Assembly: GCA_049942775.1 (NCBI GenBank)
Contig: CP188087.1
Coordinates: 90,001 to 122,000, forward strand
Source of the DNA: Candidatus Saccharimonadota bacterium
GTDB taxonomy: Bacteria > Pseudomonadota > Gammaproteobacteria > Enterobacterales > Enterobacteriaceae
Direction of reading: 5' to 3'
DNA length: 32,000 nucleotides
The position numbers were made by a program, and so were the translations under genes. Positions 3,943 through 23,501 of the stretch are shown piece by piece (positions within the stretch are counted from its first letter, which is position 1; every line of letters begins with the position of its first letter). The notes under the pieces are model-generated. The model was not told the origin of the DNA, made no database searches, and worked only from the letters and a program-made list of their open reading frames with translations.

Positions 3943-5021
3943 AAAAAAAAAAAATAAAAAAAATTTTATTTATCGATAGAGATGGAACTTTAATAAAAGA
4001 ACCTAAAATTAATTTTCAAGTTGATAACTTAGAAAAGATTAAATTTGAAAAAGAAGTATTTATATCTTTAATACAATTAAAAAACTATGGATATAGTTTT
4101 ATTATGATTACTAATCAAGATGGATTAGGAACGGAAAAATTTCCATTGTCTTGTTTTAATAAGGTTCAGAAATTTATAATAGATACGTTTGCATCTCAAA
4201 AAATTTTTTTTAAAAAAATTTTTATTTGTCCACATGAAGAACAAGAAAATTGTTTGTGTAGAAAACCAAAAATAGGGTTGGTTAGAGATTTGTTGAAAAA
4301 AAATTATCTGTCTAAAAATAGTTGTTACGTTATTGGTGATAGGAATACAGATATAGAATTTGCAAAAAATATTGGAATAACTGGTTTATTGTATCATTCT
4401 AAAAAAAATAATTGGTCTAAGATATCTAAAAAACTTATTTTATCTAAGGATAGATATGGTAAGTTTGTTAGAAAAACTAATGAATCATCAGTTTTGGTTG
4501 AAATATGGTTAGATCGAATTGGAAAAAGTAATATAAATACTGGAATTCCATTTTTTGATCATATGTTAGATCAAATTGCTGTTCATGGAGCATTCAAAAT
4601 GAATATTTTTACTAACGGAGATGTACATGTAGATGATCATCATACTGTAGAAGATACTGCTATAACTTTTGGAAATGCTTTTTTAAAATCTTTGAGCAAA
4701 AAGGTTGGAATTGGTAGATTCGGATTTACTTTACCAATGGATGAAAGTATAAGCACTTGTATATTAGATTTGTCGGGACGACCATATTTGTGTTATGAGT
4801 CAGTTTTTAAATATCAAAAAATAGGTGATTTAAGTACAGATATGATTAAACATTTTTTTAGTTCAGTTTCTTATTCTATGATGTGTACAATTCATTTAAA
4901 AGCTAAAGGAGAAAATGATCATCATATTGCTGAAAGTATATTCAAATCTTTTGGAATGGCTTTAAAGCAGGCAAAACAGATTACTGATAATTACTTACCT
5001 AGTTCAAAAGGAACTTTATAA
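3939..5021 (+). CDS. hisB: Bifunctional histidinol-phosphatase / imidazoleglycerol-phosphate dehydratase
   Basis: 360 aa. The N-terminal HAD phosphatase has the motif FIDRDGTLI. The C-terminal IGPD has FFDHMLDQIA, DDHHTVED and GENDHHIAES. ATGA overlaps the hisC stop. The N-terminus MKKKKIKK is encoded by a 13-nt A run. Confidence 0.95.
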   Translation: MKKKKIKKILFIDRDGTLIKEPKINFQVDNLEKIKFEKEVFISLIQLKNYGYSFIMITNQDGLGTEKFPLSCFNKVQKFIIDTFASQKIFFKKIFICPHEEQENCLCRKPKIGLVRDLLKKNYLSKNSCYVIGDRNTDIEFAKNIGITGLLYHSKKNNWSKISKKLILSKDRYGKFVRKTNESSVLVEIWLDRIGKSNINTGIPFFDHMLDQIAVHGAFKMNIFTNGDVHVDDHHTVEDTAITFGNAFLKSLSKKVGIGRFGFTLPMDESISTCILDLSGRPYLCYESVFKYQKIGDLSTDMIKHFFSSVSYSMMCTIHLKAKGENDHHIAESIFKSFGMALKQAKQITDNYLPSSKGTL

Positions 5022-14159: not shown

Positions 14160-14320
14160 AATTGTTTAATACTGTTGGAGATCTAGATTCTAAAAAAATA
14201 AAATGAAATATTAAAATATTAATTTAAAGGTAATTTATGTAAAGTTAAATTTATTTAATATAATGAATTTTATTAGATTTTTTATTTCATAATTATTTTA
14301 TTTATAAGTAAAAAATTAAG

Positions 14321-15057: not shown

Positions 15058-17328
15058 TTGATATTTTTGTTTTTTAAAATAAAAACTTTAAAATTTGGAT
15101 ATCAGTTGGTTATACTACGTGTTGTTTTTCCTATTTTTTCGGAGAAAAAATTTGAATATTTGTTTTTAAAAAATAAAAATATAGACTATTCTATAATAGG
15201 ATCTCGTGTTTTAGTTCCATTTAAAAAATTAAAATTAATAGGTATTGTTGTTTCTTTTTATTTTTCAAATAAAAAAAATATATATATTAAATTGAAAAGA
15301 ATTTGTGTTGTAATTGATAAAAGTTCTATTTATACAATTAATTTGTTAAATTTTTTGAATTGGATTTCAAAATATTATTTGAAACCTTTCGGATATACTT
15401 TATTCTATTTTTTACCAAAATTATTTAAGAAAGATAAATTTTTACAAACTGATTTATTTTTTCATTGGAAAATAACAAAAAAAGGGAAAAAAAGTAATTT
15501 AAATATATTTTCCTATAATAAGGAATATTTTCAAGTTTTAGAATTATTAAAAAAAAAAAATATTTTTCCATATGAACTAATTAAATTAAAAATTTCTTCT
15601 TCTATTTTAAAAAAAATAAAAAATGATGGATTATGTAGTTTTTCTTTAGTTTCTAAAAAAGATTCTATTTGGTTAAATTTAATTAAATTTAAGTCTTTGA
15701 TAAAAAAAATTAAAAATAAAGATTTTATTTTTGATGTTTTTGGGAAATATGAAAAAAAATTTTCTATTTATTTACTAATTGAACTTAGAATAGTTTTTTT
15801 ACAAAATATTTTTTTTAAAAATTTATTTAATTTAGTATTAAACAAGGGTTCGCAAATATTAATTTTAGTTCCTAGCAAAGTTGATTTACGTGCTTATTTT
15901 TCTTTCGTTCAATCTAATTTTAACGTTCCTGTTGATTATATACATTCAAATACTTCTAATAAAAGACATGCTTTAGTTTGGAACAAAATAAATAATTCAG
16001 AGATTGCTATCTTAGTAGGAACATCTAGATCTTTGTTTATGCCTTTTTCTTCTCTCGGTTTAATTTTAGTCGTTGAAGAACATGATCTGTCTTATAAAAA
16101 ATCAGGTGTAATATCTTTTAATGTAAGAAATTTAGCTATTCTTCGAGCTAAAATTGAAAATGTTTCCATAATTCTTCAATCAAATACTCCTTCTTTAGAC
16201 AGTTTGTATAATTTAAATATTGGTAAATATAAAAAATTAAAAATTAATTCATTTTATAAAAATAAAAAAAATAACATAATAAAGACAAGTATAATAAATG
16301 CAAACAAAGGTAGCTTTTATGAAATATTTTCTTATGAATTGATAGAATATTTAAAATATTCCTTAAATAAAAATAATTCGATAATTTTAATTTTTAATAA
16401 ATTAATAGTATTTTTTTTAAAATTAACATGTATAAAATGTAAATGGGAAGCAAGATGTTTAGTTTGTTTTTGTCTTTATAATTTTAATCCTAAAAATAAT
16501 CTTTTATTTTGTAGAAATTGTCTATTTAGTATTTCTAAGCCGGTTGTATGTTTGAATTGTGGTTCAAATTTTTTAAAAACAAAAAAATATAGTTTTAATG
16601 ATTGTATAAAATTAGTAAAAAAAATTTTTTTTAACTATAATCAAAAATATTTTTTTGATTTTTTAGATAAAAGTTTTTGTTTTGAATTAAAAAAATTAGA
16701 TTTTAATTATAGTTATAATTATATTTATATATATAAAAATAAAGAAAATTCTTCTATTTTTACTAATTCATACAAAAAAATCATTATTTTTTTATCCATA
16801 GACCACATTTTTCATGTCTATAGTTATCGTGTTTTTGAATATTTTTCTCAATTTTATTTTCAAATAATTAATTTATTTTTAAACAGTGTTAAAATAATTG
16901 AAATTTTTTTTCAAACTACTTTTATTAATGAAAGATATTTTGTAAATTTAATGAAAAATGATACTTATTTTGATTTTTCTAAGTATTTATTTCTTTTCTG
17001 TAAAAAAAAGAAACTACCTCCTTTCAGAAATCATGCAATAATAAGTGTTGTTAATAAAGATTTATATTATTGTATTGATTTTTTTTCTTTTTTAAAAACT
17101 GTTATTTTAGATCTATGTATAATCAGTTCAGAATGTTTATGGATTTACGGTCCAATATTTAATTTTAAAAGTTTTGTTTTTAAATTTAATTCTCATATTC
17201 TTATGATACAAACTTCTTCTAGATATAGTACACATAGATTTTTAAGAAAATTAGTTCGTATTATTAAAAAAAATAGATATTTTGAAAAAATTAATTGGAA
17301 AATAGACTTAGACCCTGTTGATTTTTAA
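15058..17328 (+). CDS. priA: Primosomal protein N' (PriA) homologue, highly diverged with eroded ATPase motifs
   Basis: The 756-codon frame is colinear with E. coli PriA. Matches include the N-terminus (RVLVPF...IGIVVS), LVPS, AILVGTSRSLFMPF, VVEEHD (the DEEH box), the four CxxC pairs (CIKC..CLVC..CRNC..CLNC), KLPPF, GPI and the C-terminus WKIDLDPVDF. The start is uncertain: TTG at 15058, or the in-frame TTG at 15106, which aligns better with the E. coli N-terminus. Confidence 0.8.
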   Translation: MIFLFFKIKTLKFGYQLVILRVVFPIFSEKKFEYLFLKNKNIDYSIIGSRVLVPFKKLKLIGIVVSFYFSNKKNIYIKLKRICVVIDKSSIYTINLLNFLNWISKYYLKPFGYTLFYFLPKLFKKDKFLQTDLFFHWKITKKGKKSNLNIFSYNKEYFQVLELLKKKNIFPYELIKLKISSSILKKIKNDGLCSFSLVSKKDSIWLNLIKFKSLIKKIKNKDFIFDVFGKYEKKFSIYLLIELRIVFLQNIFFKNLFNLVLNKGSQILILVPSKVDLRAYFSFVQSNFNVPVDYIHSNTSNKRHALVWNKINNSEIAILVGTSRSLFMPFSSLGLILVVEEHDLSYKKSGVISFNVRNLAILRAKIENVSIILQSNTPSLDSLYNLNIGKYKKLKINSFYKNKKNNIIKTSIINANKGSFYEIFSYELIEYLKYSLNKNNSIILIFNKLIVFFLKLTCIKCKWEARCLVCFCLYNFNPKNNLLFCRNCLFSISKPVVCLNCGSNFLKTKKYSFNDCIKLVKKIFFNYNQKYFFDFLDKSFCFELKKLDFNYSYNYIYIYKNKENSSIFTNSYKKIIIFLSIDHIFHVYSYRVFEYFSQFYFQIINLFLNSVKIIEIFFQTTFINERYFVNLMKNDTYFDFSKYLFLFCKKKKLPPFRNHAIISVVNKDLYYCIDFFSFLKTVILDLCIISSECLWIYGPIFNFKSFVFKFNSHILMIQTSSRYSTHRFLRKLVRIIKKNRYFEKINWKIDLDPVDF

Positions 17329-19186: not shown

Positions 19187-20239
19187 AAAATTTTATAAAA
19201 ATGTTATTAGTTTTTAAAGTTAATTAATCATCATTAGATGATAATATCATATCATTTTTTTATTTAAATTTTTACTTTTTTTAAATATTTTTTAGATTAT
19301 ATAATAAATTTATTTTTTATTGTTTTTTTTAGTCATTTCTTAGTTTAAAAAAGTTTAGCAATATACAAAAATTATTTAATGATAAAAATTTTCAATAAAC
19401 ATTATAAGATTACATTGTTTAAATTATGACAAAATTTTCAATATTAATTTTATTAGTTTTTTTGAGTTTTATTATTCGTGATTTTAACTAATTTATAAAA
19501 ATTAAAGATTTAACTTTTAATTTTTAATTTTGATGTTGTTTTGTTTAATTTTATTTTTTAATTTAGAAAAAAATCTTTTTAATTAATCATTTATATTTTG
19601 ATATATAAAATATTTAAAAAAATTTTTTAAAAATTATGTTTTGATTTTTAAAAATTTGTTTTATTAAAAATAGATTTATTTTTCTACTAAATTTTATATC
19701 ATTTGTATTAAATACTTTAGAAACATTAAGATAATTAAATATTAATTTATTTTTTATATTTGATTTATAAGGTTTTGTTTAGTATTTTGTTATCAATAAA
19801 AAAAGAATATTATTCTAATGCAGTTATTTTTTTAATAAGTTAAATTAGTAAATAAAATTTTTTTAAATTAATTTATTTTTTAAAGTTAAAGTAAACATAG
19901 TTTTTACTATTTTTAAAAAAAATATTTATAGAAGATAAAAAAATATATTTTTTTATTATTTTAAAAAATTTGTTTTTTAAAATCTATAAAGATTATTTGT
20001 AAACAAACCTTTATTTAGCATTATTTTTAAAGTAGCTTTAATTTTTTAATATTGTTTTAAACTATAACATTATAAATTAATTATTATTACGAAATATCTT
20101 TATAAGTACATAAAAATTCATATGAATGTGGTGGTTTTAGAAAGGTTTTTTAAAAATATTTAACTAAAAATGATTTATTAAAAATTGTTTAAAAAAAAAT
20201 AAAAAAATTAGATGAAAAATATAAATTATAGAGAGCAAT

Positions 20240-21289: not shown

Positions 21290-21701
21290 TTTTTTGCAGA
21301 ATTATTATTTTCTAGATAGTACAAGTTAAATTTATTTAAATTTAATTTGTATATTATAAGTTAAAATTTTAAAAAATTTAAATAATTTGTTTTTTATTTT
21401 TATATAAAGTATATATATTAAAAATATAATTTGTTTTTTTTGTTTTGTGTCTTTTATTGTATATTTTTTTTATTTACAGTATTGTATGTAAAAACCAATA
21501 ATGTTCTATCTGAAATTAAGATATAAAAATTATTTTTTTTTTGATATTATTTATCAAATAAAAATAATTTTTATTATTTAAATAATATTTTGTGAAAAAT
21601 AATCAAAAATTTATTTTTGATTTTTTTATAAAAAAACAAATTTTATAAAGTTATATAATTTTCAAATAAAATATAGAAATTATTCTTTCTAAATAATATT
21701 A

Positions 21702-22958
21702 ATGGGAATAATGTTGAAACAAAAAAATAAAAATATAATTTTGGATCGAAACAGAGATCATCGAATTATTGGAAAAAAGTTAAATTTTTATCATATCAAT
21801 GATAATTCTCCAGGAATGGTTTTTTGGCATTCGGATGGATTGATCATTTTTAGATTACTAAAAGATTTTATTAGAAAAAAATTATTAGAACATAACTATA
21901 GAGAAGTACAAACACCAATACTATTGGATGAAATAATTTGGAAAAAAAGCGGTCATTGGGAAAATTATAAAAATTCAATATTTACAACTGCTTCAGAAAA
22001 TAGGAAATATTGTATTAAACCAATGAATTGTCCTGGTCATGTAGAAATATTTAATCAAGGTTTAAAATCTTATAAAGATCTTCCTTTTAGAATTTCTGAG
22101 TTTGGTAGTTGTCATAGAAAAGAACCATCGGGTTCCATGCATGGTTTAATGAGAGTTCGGTATTTTACTCAAGATGATGCTCATATATTTTGTAGTGAAG
22201 AACAAGTTCAAAATGAAATAGAAACTTGTATTATGATGATTTTTGATATTTATAAGATATTTGGATTTAAAGAAATTTATTTAAAATTATCAACTAGACC
22301 AATAAATAGAATTGGTTCAAATGAAAATTGGGATCGTGCTGAACTAGACTTATTACAAGTATTAGAGAGGAATAACTTAAAATTTGAATATCAATCTGGT
22401 GAAGGAGCTTTTTATGGTCCTAAAATTGAATTAATTTTAAAAGATTCTTTAAATCGAATGTGGCAATGTGGAACTATTCAGTTAGATTTTTATTTATCCA
22501 GTAAATTAAATTCTTTTTATATAAATAAAAAAAATCAAAAAAAAAATCCAATTATTATTCATCGAGCAATTTTAGGTTCAATTGAACGTTTTATTGGTAT
22601 TTTAATTGAAGAATATTCAGGATATTTACCTACTTGGTTATCTCCATTACAAATTGTTGTTATTAGTGTCAATCCAATTCATTCGAATTATGTGGAAAAG
22701 TTAAAAAATAAAATATTTAATTTAGGAATTCGTGTAAAATCAGATGTTAGAAACGTAAAAATAAATATAAAAATTAGAAATTACACGATTTCTCGAATAC
22801 CATATATTTTTATATGTGGTGATAAAGAAATAAAAACATCTAAGGTAACTGTAAGGACTAGATTAGGTAAAAATTTTGATCTTGTAGATTTTAATAGTAT
22901 TATTAAGAAAATACAATTTGAGATATTTACTTATAGTAATCATTGTTTGGAGGAATAA
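21702..22958 (+). CDS. thrS: Threonyl-tRNA synthetase, N-terminally truncated (catalytic and anticodon-binding domains only)
   Basis: 418 aa. It starts at ...DRNRDHRIIGKKLNFYH, which aligns with E. coli ThrRS residues of about 225 onward (...AKRDHRKIGKQLDLYH). It is colinear from there to the shared C-terminus ...LEE. Class II motifs and putative Zn ligands are retained (KPMNCPGH, FTQDDAHIF, IIHRAILGS). An in-frame TAA lies 4 codons upstream of the ATG. Confidence 0.9.
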   Translation: MGIMLKQKNKNIILDRNRDHRIIGKKLNFYHINDNSPGMVFWHSDGLIIFRLLKDFIRKKLLEHNYREVQTPILLDEIIWKKSGHWENYKNSIFTTASENRKYCIKPMNCPGHVEIFNQGLKSYKDLPFRISEFGSCHRKEPSGSMHGLMRVRYFTQDDAHIFCSEEQVQNEIETCIMMIFDIYKIFGFKEIYLKLSTRPINRIGSNENWDRAELDLLQVLERNNLKFEYQSGEGAFYGPKIELILKDSLNRMWQCGTIQLDFYLSSKLNSFYINKKNQKKNPIIIHRAILGSIERFIGILIEEYSGYLPTWLSPLQIVVISVNPIHSNYVEKLKNKIFNLGIRVKSDVRNVKINIKIRNYTISRIPYIFICGDKEIKTSKVTVRTRLGKNFDLVDFNSIIKKIQFEIFTYSNHCLEE

Positions 22959-22961
22959 AGA

Positions 22962-23501
22962 ATTAAAGTCGGACGAAGAATTCATACAATACATCCTAAT
23001 CGTATTAATACAGAAATTAAATCAGTAGAAGTAAGATTAACTGGATTAAAAGGCGAACAATTTGGAATTGTTACTTTAAAGAAAGCTTTAAATATAGCTA
23101 TGGAACAAGATTTAGATTTGGTAGAAATTAGTCCAAACGCAAAACCTCCTGTTTGTCGTATTATGGACTATGGTAAGTTTCTTTATGAAAAAAGCAAACA
23201 TTTTAAGGAACAAAAGAAAAAACAAAAAATTATTCATGTTAAAGAAGTTAAATTTAGACCTGGAACAGAGAAAAGTGATTATCAAGTAAAATTAAGAAAT
23301 TTAGTTCGATTTCTAAATGATGGTAATAAAGTTAAAATAACTTTAAGATTTCGTGGTAGAGAAATGGCTCATCAAGGAATAGGTATGAATATTTTATATA
23401 GAATAAAACAAGATTTAAGTACTATTTCCATAGTTGAAAGTTTTCCTGTTAAAATTGAAGGAAGACAAATGATAATGATTTTATCTCCTAAGAAAAGATA
23501 G
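22962..23501 (+). CDS. infC: Translation initiation factor IF-3, with an ATT start codon
   Basis: The ORF track only calls 23100..23501 (133 aa). The frame is open back to an ATT at 22962, which is 3 nt after the thrS TAA. The extension [42 protein letters not shown] aligns with the E. coli IF3 N-terminus (...[33 protein letters not shown]). GGAGG at 22949..22953 lies 8 nt upstream. E. coli infC also uses AUU. Confidence 0.9.

What the first reader, a model, noticed from the sequence alone, without database searches (positions are those of the whole stretch)
15058..17328. PriA frame fully preserved while the helicase/ATPase motifs are erased
Seen: the 756-codon ORF is colinear with E. coli PriA from N- to C-terminus, but the catalytic signatures are gone.
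- At the Walker A position, E. coli has FSAWLLAGVTGSGKTEVYL and this ORF has FSIYLLIELRIVFLQNIFF (about 15760..15816). No GKT is present, and I saw no GKT-encoding sequence in the other two frames there.
- At motif VI, E. coli has QVAGRAGRAGKQG and this ORF has QIINLFLNSVKII (about 16861..16899).
- The GTQMLAKGHHFP region has no recognisable counterpart.
- The DEEH box (VVEEHD, 16069..16086) and all four CxxC zinc-finger pairs (about 16427..16566) are retained.

Inference: in DNA this A+T-rich, an unselected 2.3-kb frame should fill with TAA/TAG/TGA quickly, so the reading frame is probably still under selection.

Established: E. coli Walker-A mutants of priA (helicase-dead) still assemble the primosome and support near-normal growth.

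This may therefore be a naturally helicase-dead PriA kept as a DnaB-loading scaffold, or a very recent pseudogene.
Basis: partly seen in the sequence, partly recalled or inferred. Interest (0 to 1): 0.65.

Follow-up and report, generated by a model that had tools for sequence, protein, structure and literature searches.

The report
Helicase-dead PriA kept by selection
This aphid-symbiont (Buchnera) gene is a full-length copy of the replication-restart protein PriA that has lost every ATP-handling motif yet is still kept by natural selection; the same loss recurs in many insect symbionts, so the protein's DNA-fork-binding role seems to outlast its motor activity.

Summary
ORF 15058..17328 is the priA orthologue of a Buchnera from a Tetraneura-type aphid. 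It is colinear with E. coli/Klebsiella PriA.

- **Lost:** Walker A, the first Asp of DEEH (it reads VEEH), motif V and motif VI with both arginines.
- **Kept:** the 3'-end-binding domain, DNA-contact motifs Ia/Ib/III, all eight zinc cysteines and the C-terminal domain.

It is not a recent pseudogene.
- The frame has no internal stop; the other frames have 38-107.
- It is intact in three related genomes.
- dN/dS is 0.13-0.21 (ML) or 0.33-0.41 (NG86, confidence intervals below 1).
- This is the most relaxed of 19 neighbouring genes, but clearly constrained.

The loss is shared by all Buchnera lineages examined and by other reduced symbionts (Ishikawaella, Erwinia haradaeae, a Sodalis-like symbiont, reed-beetle symbionts, Lightella).

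The E. coli priA300 analogy is imperfect. priB is absent from its usual site in seven other Buchnera, and the PriB-contact residues are replaced here. The closest precedent is the Deinococcus PriA "pseudohelicase".

The DnaB-loading role is inferred, not shown. I could not check dnaT or dnaC.

The parts
15058..17328 (+). priA ORF (756 codons plus TAA). Catalytically dead PriA orthologue.
   Evidence: synteny ribE-nth-priA-tyrS-erpA as in other Buchnera
15106..15108 (+). TTG that aligns with the annotated start of the T. ulmi orthologue and with E. coli Met1; the likely true start (740 aa). Alternatives are TTG 15058 and TTG 15067 (the Logan gene call, 753 aa).
   Evidence: Residues 1-18 give pLDDT 33-39 and dN/dS of about 0.9-2.4 against T. 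ulmi (n=18, not significant).
15112..15426 (+). 3'-end DNA-binding domain (residues 19-123). It is the part most like E. coli (34% identity).
   Evidence: Pfam PF17764 E 4.9e-16, above threshold; PDB 2d7e E 2e-08; F16 and Y18 invariant
15427..15672 (+). Winged-helix domain region (residues 124-205), weakly conserved.
   Evidence: PF21213 E 0.027, below threshold; AF2 predicts a helix/strand pattern with pLDDT about 70-89
15760..15816 (+). Former Walker A (motif I) region, FSIYLLIELRIVFLQNIFF. No P-loop and no GKT.
15853..15879 (+). Motif Ia (QILILVPSK), retained.
   Evidence: Q247, L249, V252 and P253 invariant in alignment A1
16009..16038 (+). Motif Ib (ILVGTSRSLF), retained.
16072..16083 (+). 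Motif II remnant VEEH. The first Asp of DEEH is replaced by Val; E-H is invariant.
16177..16191 (+). Motif III (QSNTP opposite GSATP), largely retained.
16429..16560 (+). Cysteine-rich region with four CxxC pairs (CIKC, CLVC, CRNC, CLNC). The PriB-contact positions are changed (D438 to K, T482 to N, H483 to F).
   Evidence: All eight Cys invariant in 49 and 34 sequences; contact residues with PMC10175261
16723..16770 (+). Former motif V region (IYIYKNKENSSIFTNS opposite IGTQMLAKGHHF), erased. The adjacent segment around residues 537-551 is the lowest-confidence part of both models.
16861..16899 (+). Former motif VI (QIINLFLNSVKII). Both arginines are lost.
17014..17325 (+). C-terminal domain, from the invariant LPP motif to the end (residues 653-756).
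   Evidence: PF18074 E 1.3e-4, below threshold; colinear with the Klebsiella PriA CTD; pLDDT about 81-91 except about 61-64 at residues 701-710

Best explanation
This is the vertically inherited priA gene of a Buchnera aphidicola from a Tetraneura-type aphid, and it encodes a PriA 'pseudohelicase'.

**Shown**
- The protein keeps the whole PriA architecture: 3'-end-binding domain, winged helix, two RecA-like lobes, zinc-binding cysteine-rich region and C-terminal domain.
- The residues that bind and hydrolyse ATP are erased: Walker A, the Walker B aspartate, motif V and the motif VI arginines.
- The motifs that contact DNA (Ia, Ib, III) and the eight zinc cysteines are conserved.
- The gene evolves under relaxed but real purifying selection.
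- The motif loss is shared by every Buchnera PriA examined, so it most likely predates the divergence of those lineages. It recurs in other reduced insect symbionts.

**Inferred**
- The protein cannot unwind DNA.
- It probably still recognises abandoned replication forks through the 3' end of the leading strand and the fork arms. It would then serve as an ATP-independent platform that helps put the replicative helicase DnaB back on the lagging-strand template.
- It probably does this without PriB, either through DnaT or by touching DnaB directly, as reported for Deinococcus radiodurans PriA.
For: **Identity and colinearity:**

**Motif table:**

**Orthology and synteny**
- 87% identity to Buchnera (T. 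akinire), 71% to Buchnera (T. ulmi), with nth-priA-tyrS conserved.

**Selection**
- dN/dS (ML) is 0.20, 0.21 and 0.13 for priA, against 0.03-0.16 for the 18 neighbouring genes.
- dN/dS (NG86) is 0.33 [0.24-0.47], 0.37 [0.26-0.53] and 0.41 [0.33-0.54]; no bootstrap replicate reached 1.
- The NG86 point estimate is below 1 in every region in the T. ulmi comparison. This includes the dead motif IV-VI stretch, 0.30 [0.11-0.74] and 0.36 [0.20-0.64]. The only exception is the 51-codon CRR against T. akinire (NG86 1.05 [0.29-5.64]; ML 0.25). Several short regions have intervals that include 1.
- P(no stop | neutral substitutions) is 7e-6 against T. akinire and 1e-12 against T. ulmi. All indels are in frame.

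**Predicted fold**
- AF2 pLDDT 78.6, pTM 0.79 with a mixed alignment; 80.8 and 0.77 with an alignment of motif-less symbiont PriAs only.
- The best Foldseek hits for both models are PriA structures, TM 0.55-0.78.

**Breadth**
- 42 of 226 retrieved PriA homologues lack both Walker A and motif VI. That includes 33 of the 35 most AT-biased ones.
- Named sources are Buchnera, Ishikawaella, Erwinia haradaeae, a Sodalis-like symbiont, Donacia and Plateumaris symbionts, and Lightella.

**PriB**
- No priB lies between rpsF and rpsR in seven other Buchnera lineages.
- The PriB-contact residues are replaced.

**Established knowledge**
- The K230R PriA of E. coli is ATPase-dead but still assembles primosomes (PMC5778457).
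- D. radiodurans PriA is a pseudohelicase that binds forks and DnaB (PMC4504706).
Against: - No biochemical or expression data exist for this protein.
- It is the fastest-evolving and lowest-GC gene of its neighbourhood. Selection is therefore weak.
- One Buchnera lineage (L160) carries a frameshifted priA, and priA is absent from some tiny genomes (PMC1193525). The function is therefore dispensable in some settings.
- In E. coli a helicase-dead PriA needs PriB, which Buchnera appears to lack, so the E. coli pathway cannot simply be transferred.
- I could not check dnaT, dnaC or rep in this genome, and priB was checked only in other Buchnera lineages.
- AF2 may reproduce the PriA fold from what it learned of the family, not from this sequence.
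Confidence: 0.62

Rival explanations
1. The gene is on a slow path to loss. Its product is functionless or nearly so, and the open frame reflects residual weak constraint or chance survival (a 'neutralised' gene).
For: - It has the highest dN/dS of 19 neighbouring genes and the lowest GC, 17-18% against about 22%.
- It fails the NCBIfam and most Pfam thresholds.
- priA is frameshifted in one Buchnera genome.
- priA is missing from some endosymbionts (PMC1193525).
Against: - The dN/dS confidence intervals exclude 1 in three comparisons.
- P(no stop | neutrality) is 1e-12 against T. ulmi.
- The frame, the eight cysteines and motifs Ia/Ib/III are conserved across Buchnera lineages that share only about 30% identity.
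- pheT and erpA, which are clearly functional, have similar dN/dS.
Confidence: 0.15
2. The protein is retained for a DNA-binding job other than reloading DnaB. Candidates are capping or protecting abandoned forks, blocking polymerase access, organising SSB, or origin-independent initiation.
For: - The DNA-contact parts are the ones retained.
- PriB contacts are lost and priB is absent in other Buchnera.
- Buchnera lacks recA (PMC1193525), so the classical D-loop substrates should be rare.
Against: - No positive evidence points to any alternative role.
- The C-terminal domain and lobe 2, which carry the DnaT-docking surface in E. coli (PMC13377028), are still under constraint.
- The only characterised pseudohelicase PriA binds DnaB.
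Confidence: 0.17
3. The protein is still an ATPase/helicase that uses a non-canonical nucleotide site.
For: The E-H of motif II is invariant. A second weak nucleotide site has been proposed for E. coli PriA (PMC5778457).
Against: - Walker A, the Walker B aspartate, motif V and both motif VI arginines are all gone.
- A single K230R change already abolishes activity in E. coli.
Confidence: 0.03
4. It is a sequencing, assembly or frame artefact that hides an intact motif.
For: None found.
Against: - No GK[TS] or GRxGR is encoded in any forward frame.
- An independent assembly has the identical sequence.
- Three related genomes show the same state.
Confidence: 0.01

Closest known systems
Deinococcus radiodurans / Deinococcus-Thermus PriA pseudohelicase (Lopper et al. 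2015, PMC4504706)
   Same: Both are PriA orthologues retained with defective Walker A and B motifs. The Deinococcus protein has no ATPase or helicase activity but binds fork DNA and DnaB. Its organism lacks the E. coli-type PriB-DnaT route.
   Different: - In Deinococcus the motifs are recognisable but substituted (GKT to GRT). Here motifs I, V and VI are erased beyond recognition.
- This case lies inside the Enterobacterales, where PriA-PriB-DnaT is the norm.
- It recurs independently in several insect symbionts.
- Nothing has been tested biochemically here.
E. coli priA300 (K230R) and K230A/D laboratory alleles
   Same: Both are ATPase- and helicase-dead PriA. The E. coli alleles still assemble primosomes and give near-wild-type growth (PMC5778457).
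   Different: - priA300 needs PriB: priA300 priB behaves like a priA null.
- Buchnera lineages examined have no priB at the rpsF-rpsR site, and the CRR residues that hold PriB are replaced here.
- The E. coli allele differs by one residue; this protein is only about 24% identical overall.
Canonical PriA (primosomal protein N', replication restart helicase; PDB 4NL4, 6DGD, 8FAK)
   Same: Same domain order, same predicted fold (TM 0.62-0.78), same zinc-cysteine region, same 3'-end-binding domain, and the same genomic position in Buchnera.
   Different: It lacks the SF2 ATPase signatures and scores far below the NCBIfam equivalog cutoffs (334 vs 858 bits).

Membership tests
PriA (primosomal protein N') orthologue | N-terminal 3'-end DNA-binding domain | tested here: met
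   PF17764 E 4.9e-16, 58.8 bits vs cutoff 22.7; PDB 2d7e E 2e-08
PriA (primosomal protein N') orthologue | End-to-end colinearity and fold of PriA | tested here: met
   Residues 20-755 align to E. coli PriA 4-731; Foldseek top hits are all PriA, TM 0.55-0.78
PriA (primosomal protein N') orthologue | Cysteine-rich region with four CxxC pairs | tested here: met
   All eight Cys present and invariant
PriA (primosomal protein N') orthologue | Curated equivalog score (NCBIfam) | tested here: not met
   Best model NF004065 scores 334 bits vs cutoff 858; TIGR00595 scores 196 vs 230
PriA (primosomal protein N') orthologue | Conserved gene neighbourhood in the lineage | tested here: met
   nth-priA-tyrS-erpA in the window, T. 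akinire, T. ulmi, A. pisum-type and JGI Buchnera contigs
Active SF2 (DExH) helicase | Walker A P-loop GxxxxGK[TS] | tested here: not met
   IELRIVFLQN in its place; no GK[TS] in any frame
Active SF2 (DExH) helicase | Walker B DExH with the Mg-binding Asp | tested here: not met
   VEEH; D320 is Val
Active SF2 (DExH) helicase | Motif VI arginines (QxxGRxGR) | tested here: not met
   QIINLFLN; R584 to L, R587 to N
Active SF2 (DExH) helicase | ATP hydrolysis and duplex unwinding | not testable with these tools
   Needs purified protein
PriA pseudohelicase (Deinococcus type) | PriA orthologue with defective ATPase motifs retained under selection | tested here: met
   Motifs. Selection:
PriA pseudohelicase (Deinococcus type) | Binds fork DNA and the cognate DnaB without ATPase activity | not testable with these tools
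   Shown only for D. radiodurans (PMC4504706)
E. coli-type PriA-PriB-DnaT restart pathway | priB present (rpsF-priB-rpsR-rplI) | tested here: inconclusive
   Absent at that site in seven other Buchnera lineages, including A. pisum-type and Formosaphis. The window's own genome and the Tetraneura genomes could not be reached.
E. coli-type PriA-PriB-DnaT restart pathway | PriB-contact residues on the CRR (D438, S481, T482, H483) | tested here: not met
   They read K, S, N, F in the window protein; the contact residues come from PMC10175261
E. coli-type PriA-PriB-DnaT restart pathway | dnaT and dnaC present | not tested
   The DnaT search returned only the 120 closest enteric relatives.
Pseudogene | Frame disruption, or dN/dS about 1 | tested here: not met
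   No internal stop, in-frame indels only, omega 0.13-0.41 with intervals below 1

The most novel reading that the evidence does not exclude
Reduced insect endosymbionts have repeatedly and independently converted PriA from a motor into an ATP-independent, PriB-independent fork-recognition adaptor. If so, fork recognition plus the zinc/CRR-CTD platform would be the minimal selectable core of bacterial replication restart. That implies a direct PriA-to-DnaB (or PriA-DnaT-only) loading route inside the Enterobacterales, which E. coli genetics says should not suffice.
Probability: 0.35. Interest if true: 0.7.

Novelty: new member of a known kind. Interest (0 to 1): 0.52.

Why it matters
**What the literature says**
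- Buchnera PriA (BU120) has been listed as an ATP-dependent helicase (PMC6389857).

**What these data add**
- A whole set of insect symbionts keeps PriA under selection after erasing its ATP site.
- These symbionts apparently do this without PriB.
- This is a natural, replicated experiment on which PriA activities are indispensable.
- It gives concrete proteins with which to test whether DnaB can be reloaded without PriA unwinding and without PriB.

**Caution for genome annotation**
- 'Gene present' in reduced-genome inventories does not mean 'activity present'.

Tried and rejected
- **Genome-collection scan with a Buchnera PriA alignment.** The derived patterns were too specific.
- **Literature searches for priB, dnaT or dnaC in Buchnera, or for any report of motif-less symbiont PriA.** I found no statement either way. 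Only the Deinococcus pseudohelicase paper and reviews turned up.
- **The RpsF profile search.** It confirmed that the AT-rich contigs are Buchnera. It did not list the Tetraneura genomes, so priB could not be checked in the window's own lineage.
- **Classifying motif loss from one large 224-sequence alignment.** This mis-scored flavobacterial PriAs whose Walker A is GVTSSGKT. I replaced it with pattern matching on ungapped sequences.
- **Two papers were not held:** the aphid-Buchnera proteomics paper and the minimal-gene-set review.
- **Rejected readings:**
  - recent pseudogene;
  - hidden motif in another frame;
  - assembly error.
Full report
**1. What is there**

The window is about 22% G+C. 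Its gene order is hisH-hisA-hisF-hisI, gnd, dcd, metG, tilS, ribE, nth, the ORF, tyrS, erpA, aroH, thrS, infC, rplT, pheS, pheT.

The ORF at 15058..17328 (+) has 756 codons. Its closest relatives are:
- the priA product of Buchnera aphidicola (Tetraneura akinire), 87% identity, locus L002;
- an unnamed Logan contig, 86%, L030;
- Buchnera aphidicola (Tetraneura ulmi), 71%, L031.

The nth-priA-tyrS order also holds in A. pisum-type Buchnera. An independent assembly (Logan SRR33632137) is identical to the window over 15.3 kb. The sequence is therefore real, and the gene is the vertically inherited priA of a Tetraneura-type Buchnera.

**2.

HMMER aligns residues 20-755 with E. coli PriA residues 4-731 in one stretch (E 4e-64). 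Klebsiella PriA matches at E 3e-64.

Motif by motif, with coordinates checked:

| Motif | E. coli | This ORF | Coordinates | State |
|---|---|---|---|---|
| I (Walker A) | GVTGSGKT | IELRIVFL | within 15760..15816 | lost |
| Ia | LVMVPEI | LILVPSK | within 15853..15879 | kept |
| Ib | VIGTRSALF | LVGTSRSLF | within 16009..16038 | kept |
| II (Walker B) | DEEH | VEEH | 16072..16083 | first Asp lost |
| III | GSATP | QSNTP | 16177..16191 | largely kept |
| IV | LFLNRRG | LIFNKLI | within 16387..16410 | degraded |
| V | IGTQMLAKGHHF | IYIYKNKENSSIFTNS region | 16723..16770 | erased |
| VI | QVAGRAGR | QIINLFLN | within 16861..16899 | lost; both Arg gone |

No GK[TS] or GRxGR is encoded in any forward frame. 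The eight CRR cysteines are intact (16429..16560).

The Mg-coordinating aspartate is valine.

Database thresholds tell the same story. Only the 3'-end-binding domain passes Pfam's cutoff. The best NCBIfam PriA model scores 334 bits against a cutoff of 858.

**3. It is not a pseudogene**

- The coding frame has no internal stop. The other five frames have 38-107. Given the composition, 756 open codons have a probability of about 1e-34.
- About 6.5% of random single-base changes in this gene would create a stop. With 178 differences from T. akinire and 411 from T. ulmi, the chance of no stop under neutrality is 7e-6 and 1e-12.
- All length differences are in frame.
- dN/dS (ML) is 0.20, 0.21 and 0.13 in the three comparisons.
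- dN/dS (NG86) is 0.33 [0.24-0.47], 0.37 [0.26-0.53] and 0.41 [0.33-0.54]. No bootstrap replicate reached 1.

The 18 neighbouring genes give 0.03-0.16 (ML). priA is therefore the most relaxed gene of the neighbourhood, close to pheT and erpA, and also the lowest in G+C.

By region:
- The NG86 point estimate is below 1 in every region in the T. ulmi comparison.
- The stretch that once held motifs IV-VI is included: 0.30 [0.11-0.74] and 0.36 [0.20-0.64].
- The only exception is the 51-codon CRR against T. akinire (NG86 1.05 [0.29-5.64], ML 0.25).
- Several short regions have intervals that include 1.

The first 18 codons look unconstrained. The homologous start is probably the TTG at 15106.

**4. 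The fold is predicted to persist**

- AlphaFold2 with a mixed alignment gave pLDDT 78.6 and pTM 0.79.
- With an alignment made only of motif-less symbiont PriAs it gave 80.8 and 0.77, with the same alternating strand/helix pattern in both RecA-like lobes.
- Both models hit PriA structures first in Foldseek, TM 0.55-0.78.
- The least confident parts are the linker before the dead P-loop (about residues 200-230) and about residues 537-551 next to the former motif V.

This is a prediction. The method may carry over what it learned from canonical PriA.

**5. The loss is shared and repeated**

The same motifs are missing in A. pisum-type Buchnera (P0007), two JGI Buchnera contigs (P0003, P0004), and Formosaphis and Melanaphis Buchnera. 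They are also missing in other symbionts:
- Ishikawaella capsulata;
- Erwinia haradaeae;
- a Sodalis-like symbiont of Drepanosiphum;
- Donacia and Plateumaris reed-beetle symbionts;
- Lightella.

Of 226 PriA homologues retrieved with this protein, the split is:

| State | Count |
|---|---|
| Both Walker A and motif VI missing | 42 |
| Both present | 178 |
| Walker A kept, motif VI missing | 6 |
| Walker A missing, motif VI kept | 0 |

Among the 35 most AT-biased proteins, 33 lack both motifs. The sample is biased towards relatives of the query.

The dead P-loop regions of different Buchnera lineages share no similarity with each other. That fits an old loss followed by drift. Erwinia haradaeae is a younger symbiont by established knowledge. 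Its PriA in P0005 still has a recognisable motif V (GTQM) but has lost motifs I and VI, which looks like an earlier stage.

One Buchnera genome-size contig (L160) has priA split by a single frameshift at a run of T. The gene can therefore be hit, or perhaps rescued by transcriptional slippage.

**6. How it most likely works**

*Shown:*
- The ATP-site residues are gone.
- The 3'-end-binding domain is the part most like E. coli (34% identity, F16 and Y18 invariant).
- Motifs Ia, Ib and III, the E-H of motif II, the zinc cysteines and the LPP motif of the C-terminal domain are invariant across symbiont lineages.

*Established:*
- E. coli PriA K230R lacks ATPase, helicase and translocase activity. 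It still supports primosome assembly and near-normal growth, but only if PriB is present (PMC5778457).
- PriB docks on CRR residues D438, S481, T482 and H483 (PMC10175261).
- DnaT docks on lobe 2 plus the C-terminal domain (PMC13377028).
- D. radiodurans PriA is a pseudohelicase that binds forks and DnaB (PMC4504706).

*Tested here:*
- In seven other Buchnera lineages rpsF is followed by rpsR after 20-125 nt. This is the site where free-living relatives carry priB.
- In the window protein D438 and H483 are K and F.

*Inferred:*
- The protein binds abandoned forks and acts as an ATP-independent adaptor for reloading DnaB, without PriB.
- It would do so either through DnaT or directly.
- It needs a lagging-strand template that is already single-stranded, or another helicase to expose one.
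- Because Buchnera lacks recA (PMC1193525), stalled forks should be the main substrate, more than D-loops.

**7. Comparison with what is known**

This is a true PriA orthologue by synteny, architecture and fold. It fails every test for an active SF2 helicase and fails the curated equivalog score.

The kind, a PriA pseudohelicase, was described for Deinococcus-Thermus in 2015. This case differs in three ways:
- The erasure is far more complete.
- It sits inside the Enterobacterales.
- It is repeated in several symbiont lineages.

I found no paper in the searchable library that reports it. One review lists Buchnera BU120 as an ATP-dependent helicase.

**8. Limits**

- I could not examine dnaT, dnaC or rep anywhere.
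- I could not examine priB in the window's own lineage.
- No biochemical or expression data were available.
- dS against T. ulmi is near saturation (about 1.2), so the ML ratios for short regions are unstable.

Noticed in passing
window 21702..22958 (thrS) and spacer 21290..21701: Threonyl-tRNA synthetase is only 418 aa. It aligns to the 642-aa A. pisum-type Buchnera enzyme only from about residue 240 on, so the N-terminal TGS and editing domains are missing. The T. ulmi orthologue (415 aa) shows the same. The upstream 412-nt spacer is 10% G+C.
   Followed up: partly
window 19187..20239: A 1053-nt non-coding spacer at 11% G+C lies between erpA and aroH. A. pisum-type Buchnera carry a PF01594 (AI-2E/perM-like) transporter gene here (L032 10235..11329). 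tblastn detects no remnant of it.
   Followed up: partly
window 14160..14320 (between ribE and nth): The rnfABCDGE operon lies between ribE and nth in A. pisum-type Buchnera (L032, L033). L160, which covers only rnfD onwards, shows rnfD-rnfG-rnfE before nth. The operon is absent from the window and from the T. akinire-like (L030) and T. ulmi loci.
   Followed up: no
L160 2501..4683 (JGI contig Ga0127528_1000015, 619,772 bp): In this Buchnera genome priA is split into 566-aa and 102-aa ORFs by a single frameshift at a run of T (Phe codons) near nt 4180-4198. This could be early pseudogenisation, or a slippage-rescuable lesion.
   Followed up: partly
L047, L099, L105, L113, L127, L156, L158 (rpsF-rpsR spacers): Seven Buchnera lineages have rpsF followed directly by rpsR (20-125 nt apart), with no priB. 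Free-living-type contigs from the same scan (L058, L100, L141, L086) carry priB there.
   Followed up: yes
P0210, P0213, P0307 (PriA homologues from the representative search): These PriA homologues keep an intact Walker A (for example GMAGSGKT) but have no motif VI GRxGR. No homologue showed the reverse state. They may be intermediate stages in the loss of ATPase activity. Their organisms were not identified.
   Followed up: no
P0029, P0039, P0066 (604-612 aa, on contigs of 297-314 kb): These are very lysine-rich, shortened PriA homologues from genomes of about 300 kb. They lack Walker A and motif VI and appear to lack much of the winged-helix region. Their organisms are unnamed in the sources.
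   Followed up: no
window 23100..23501 (infC): The ATG/GTG/TTG-bounded ORF for IF3 is 133 aa, whereas the T. ulmi gene call is 179 aa. This would fit the unusual non-canonical start codon known for infC, but I did not check it.
   Followed up: no
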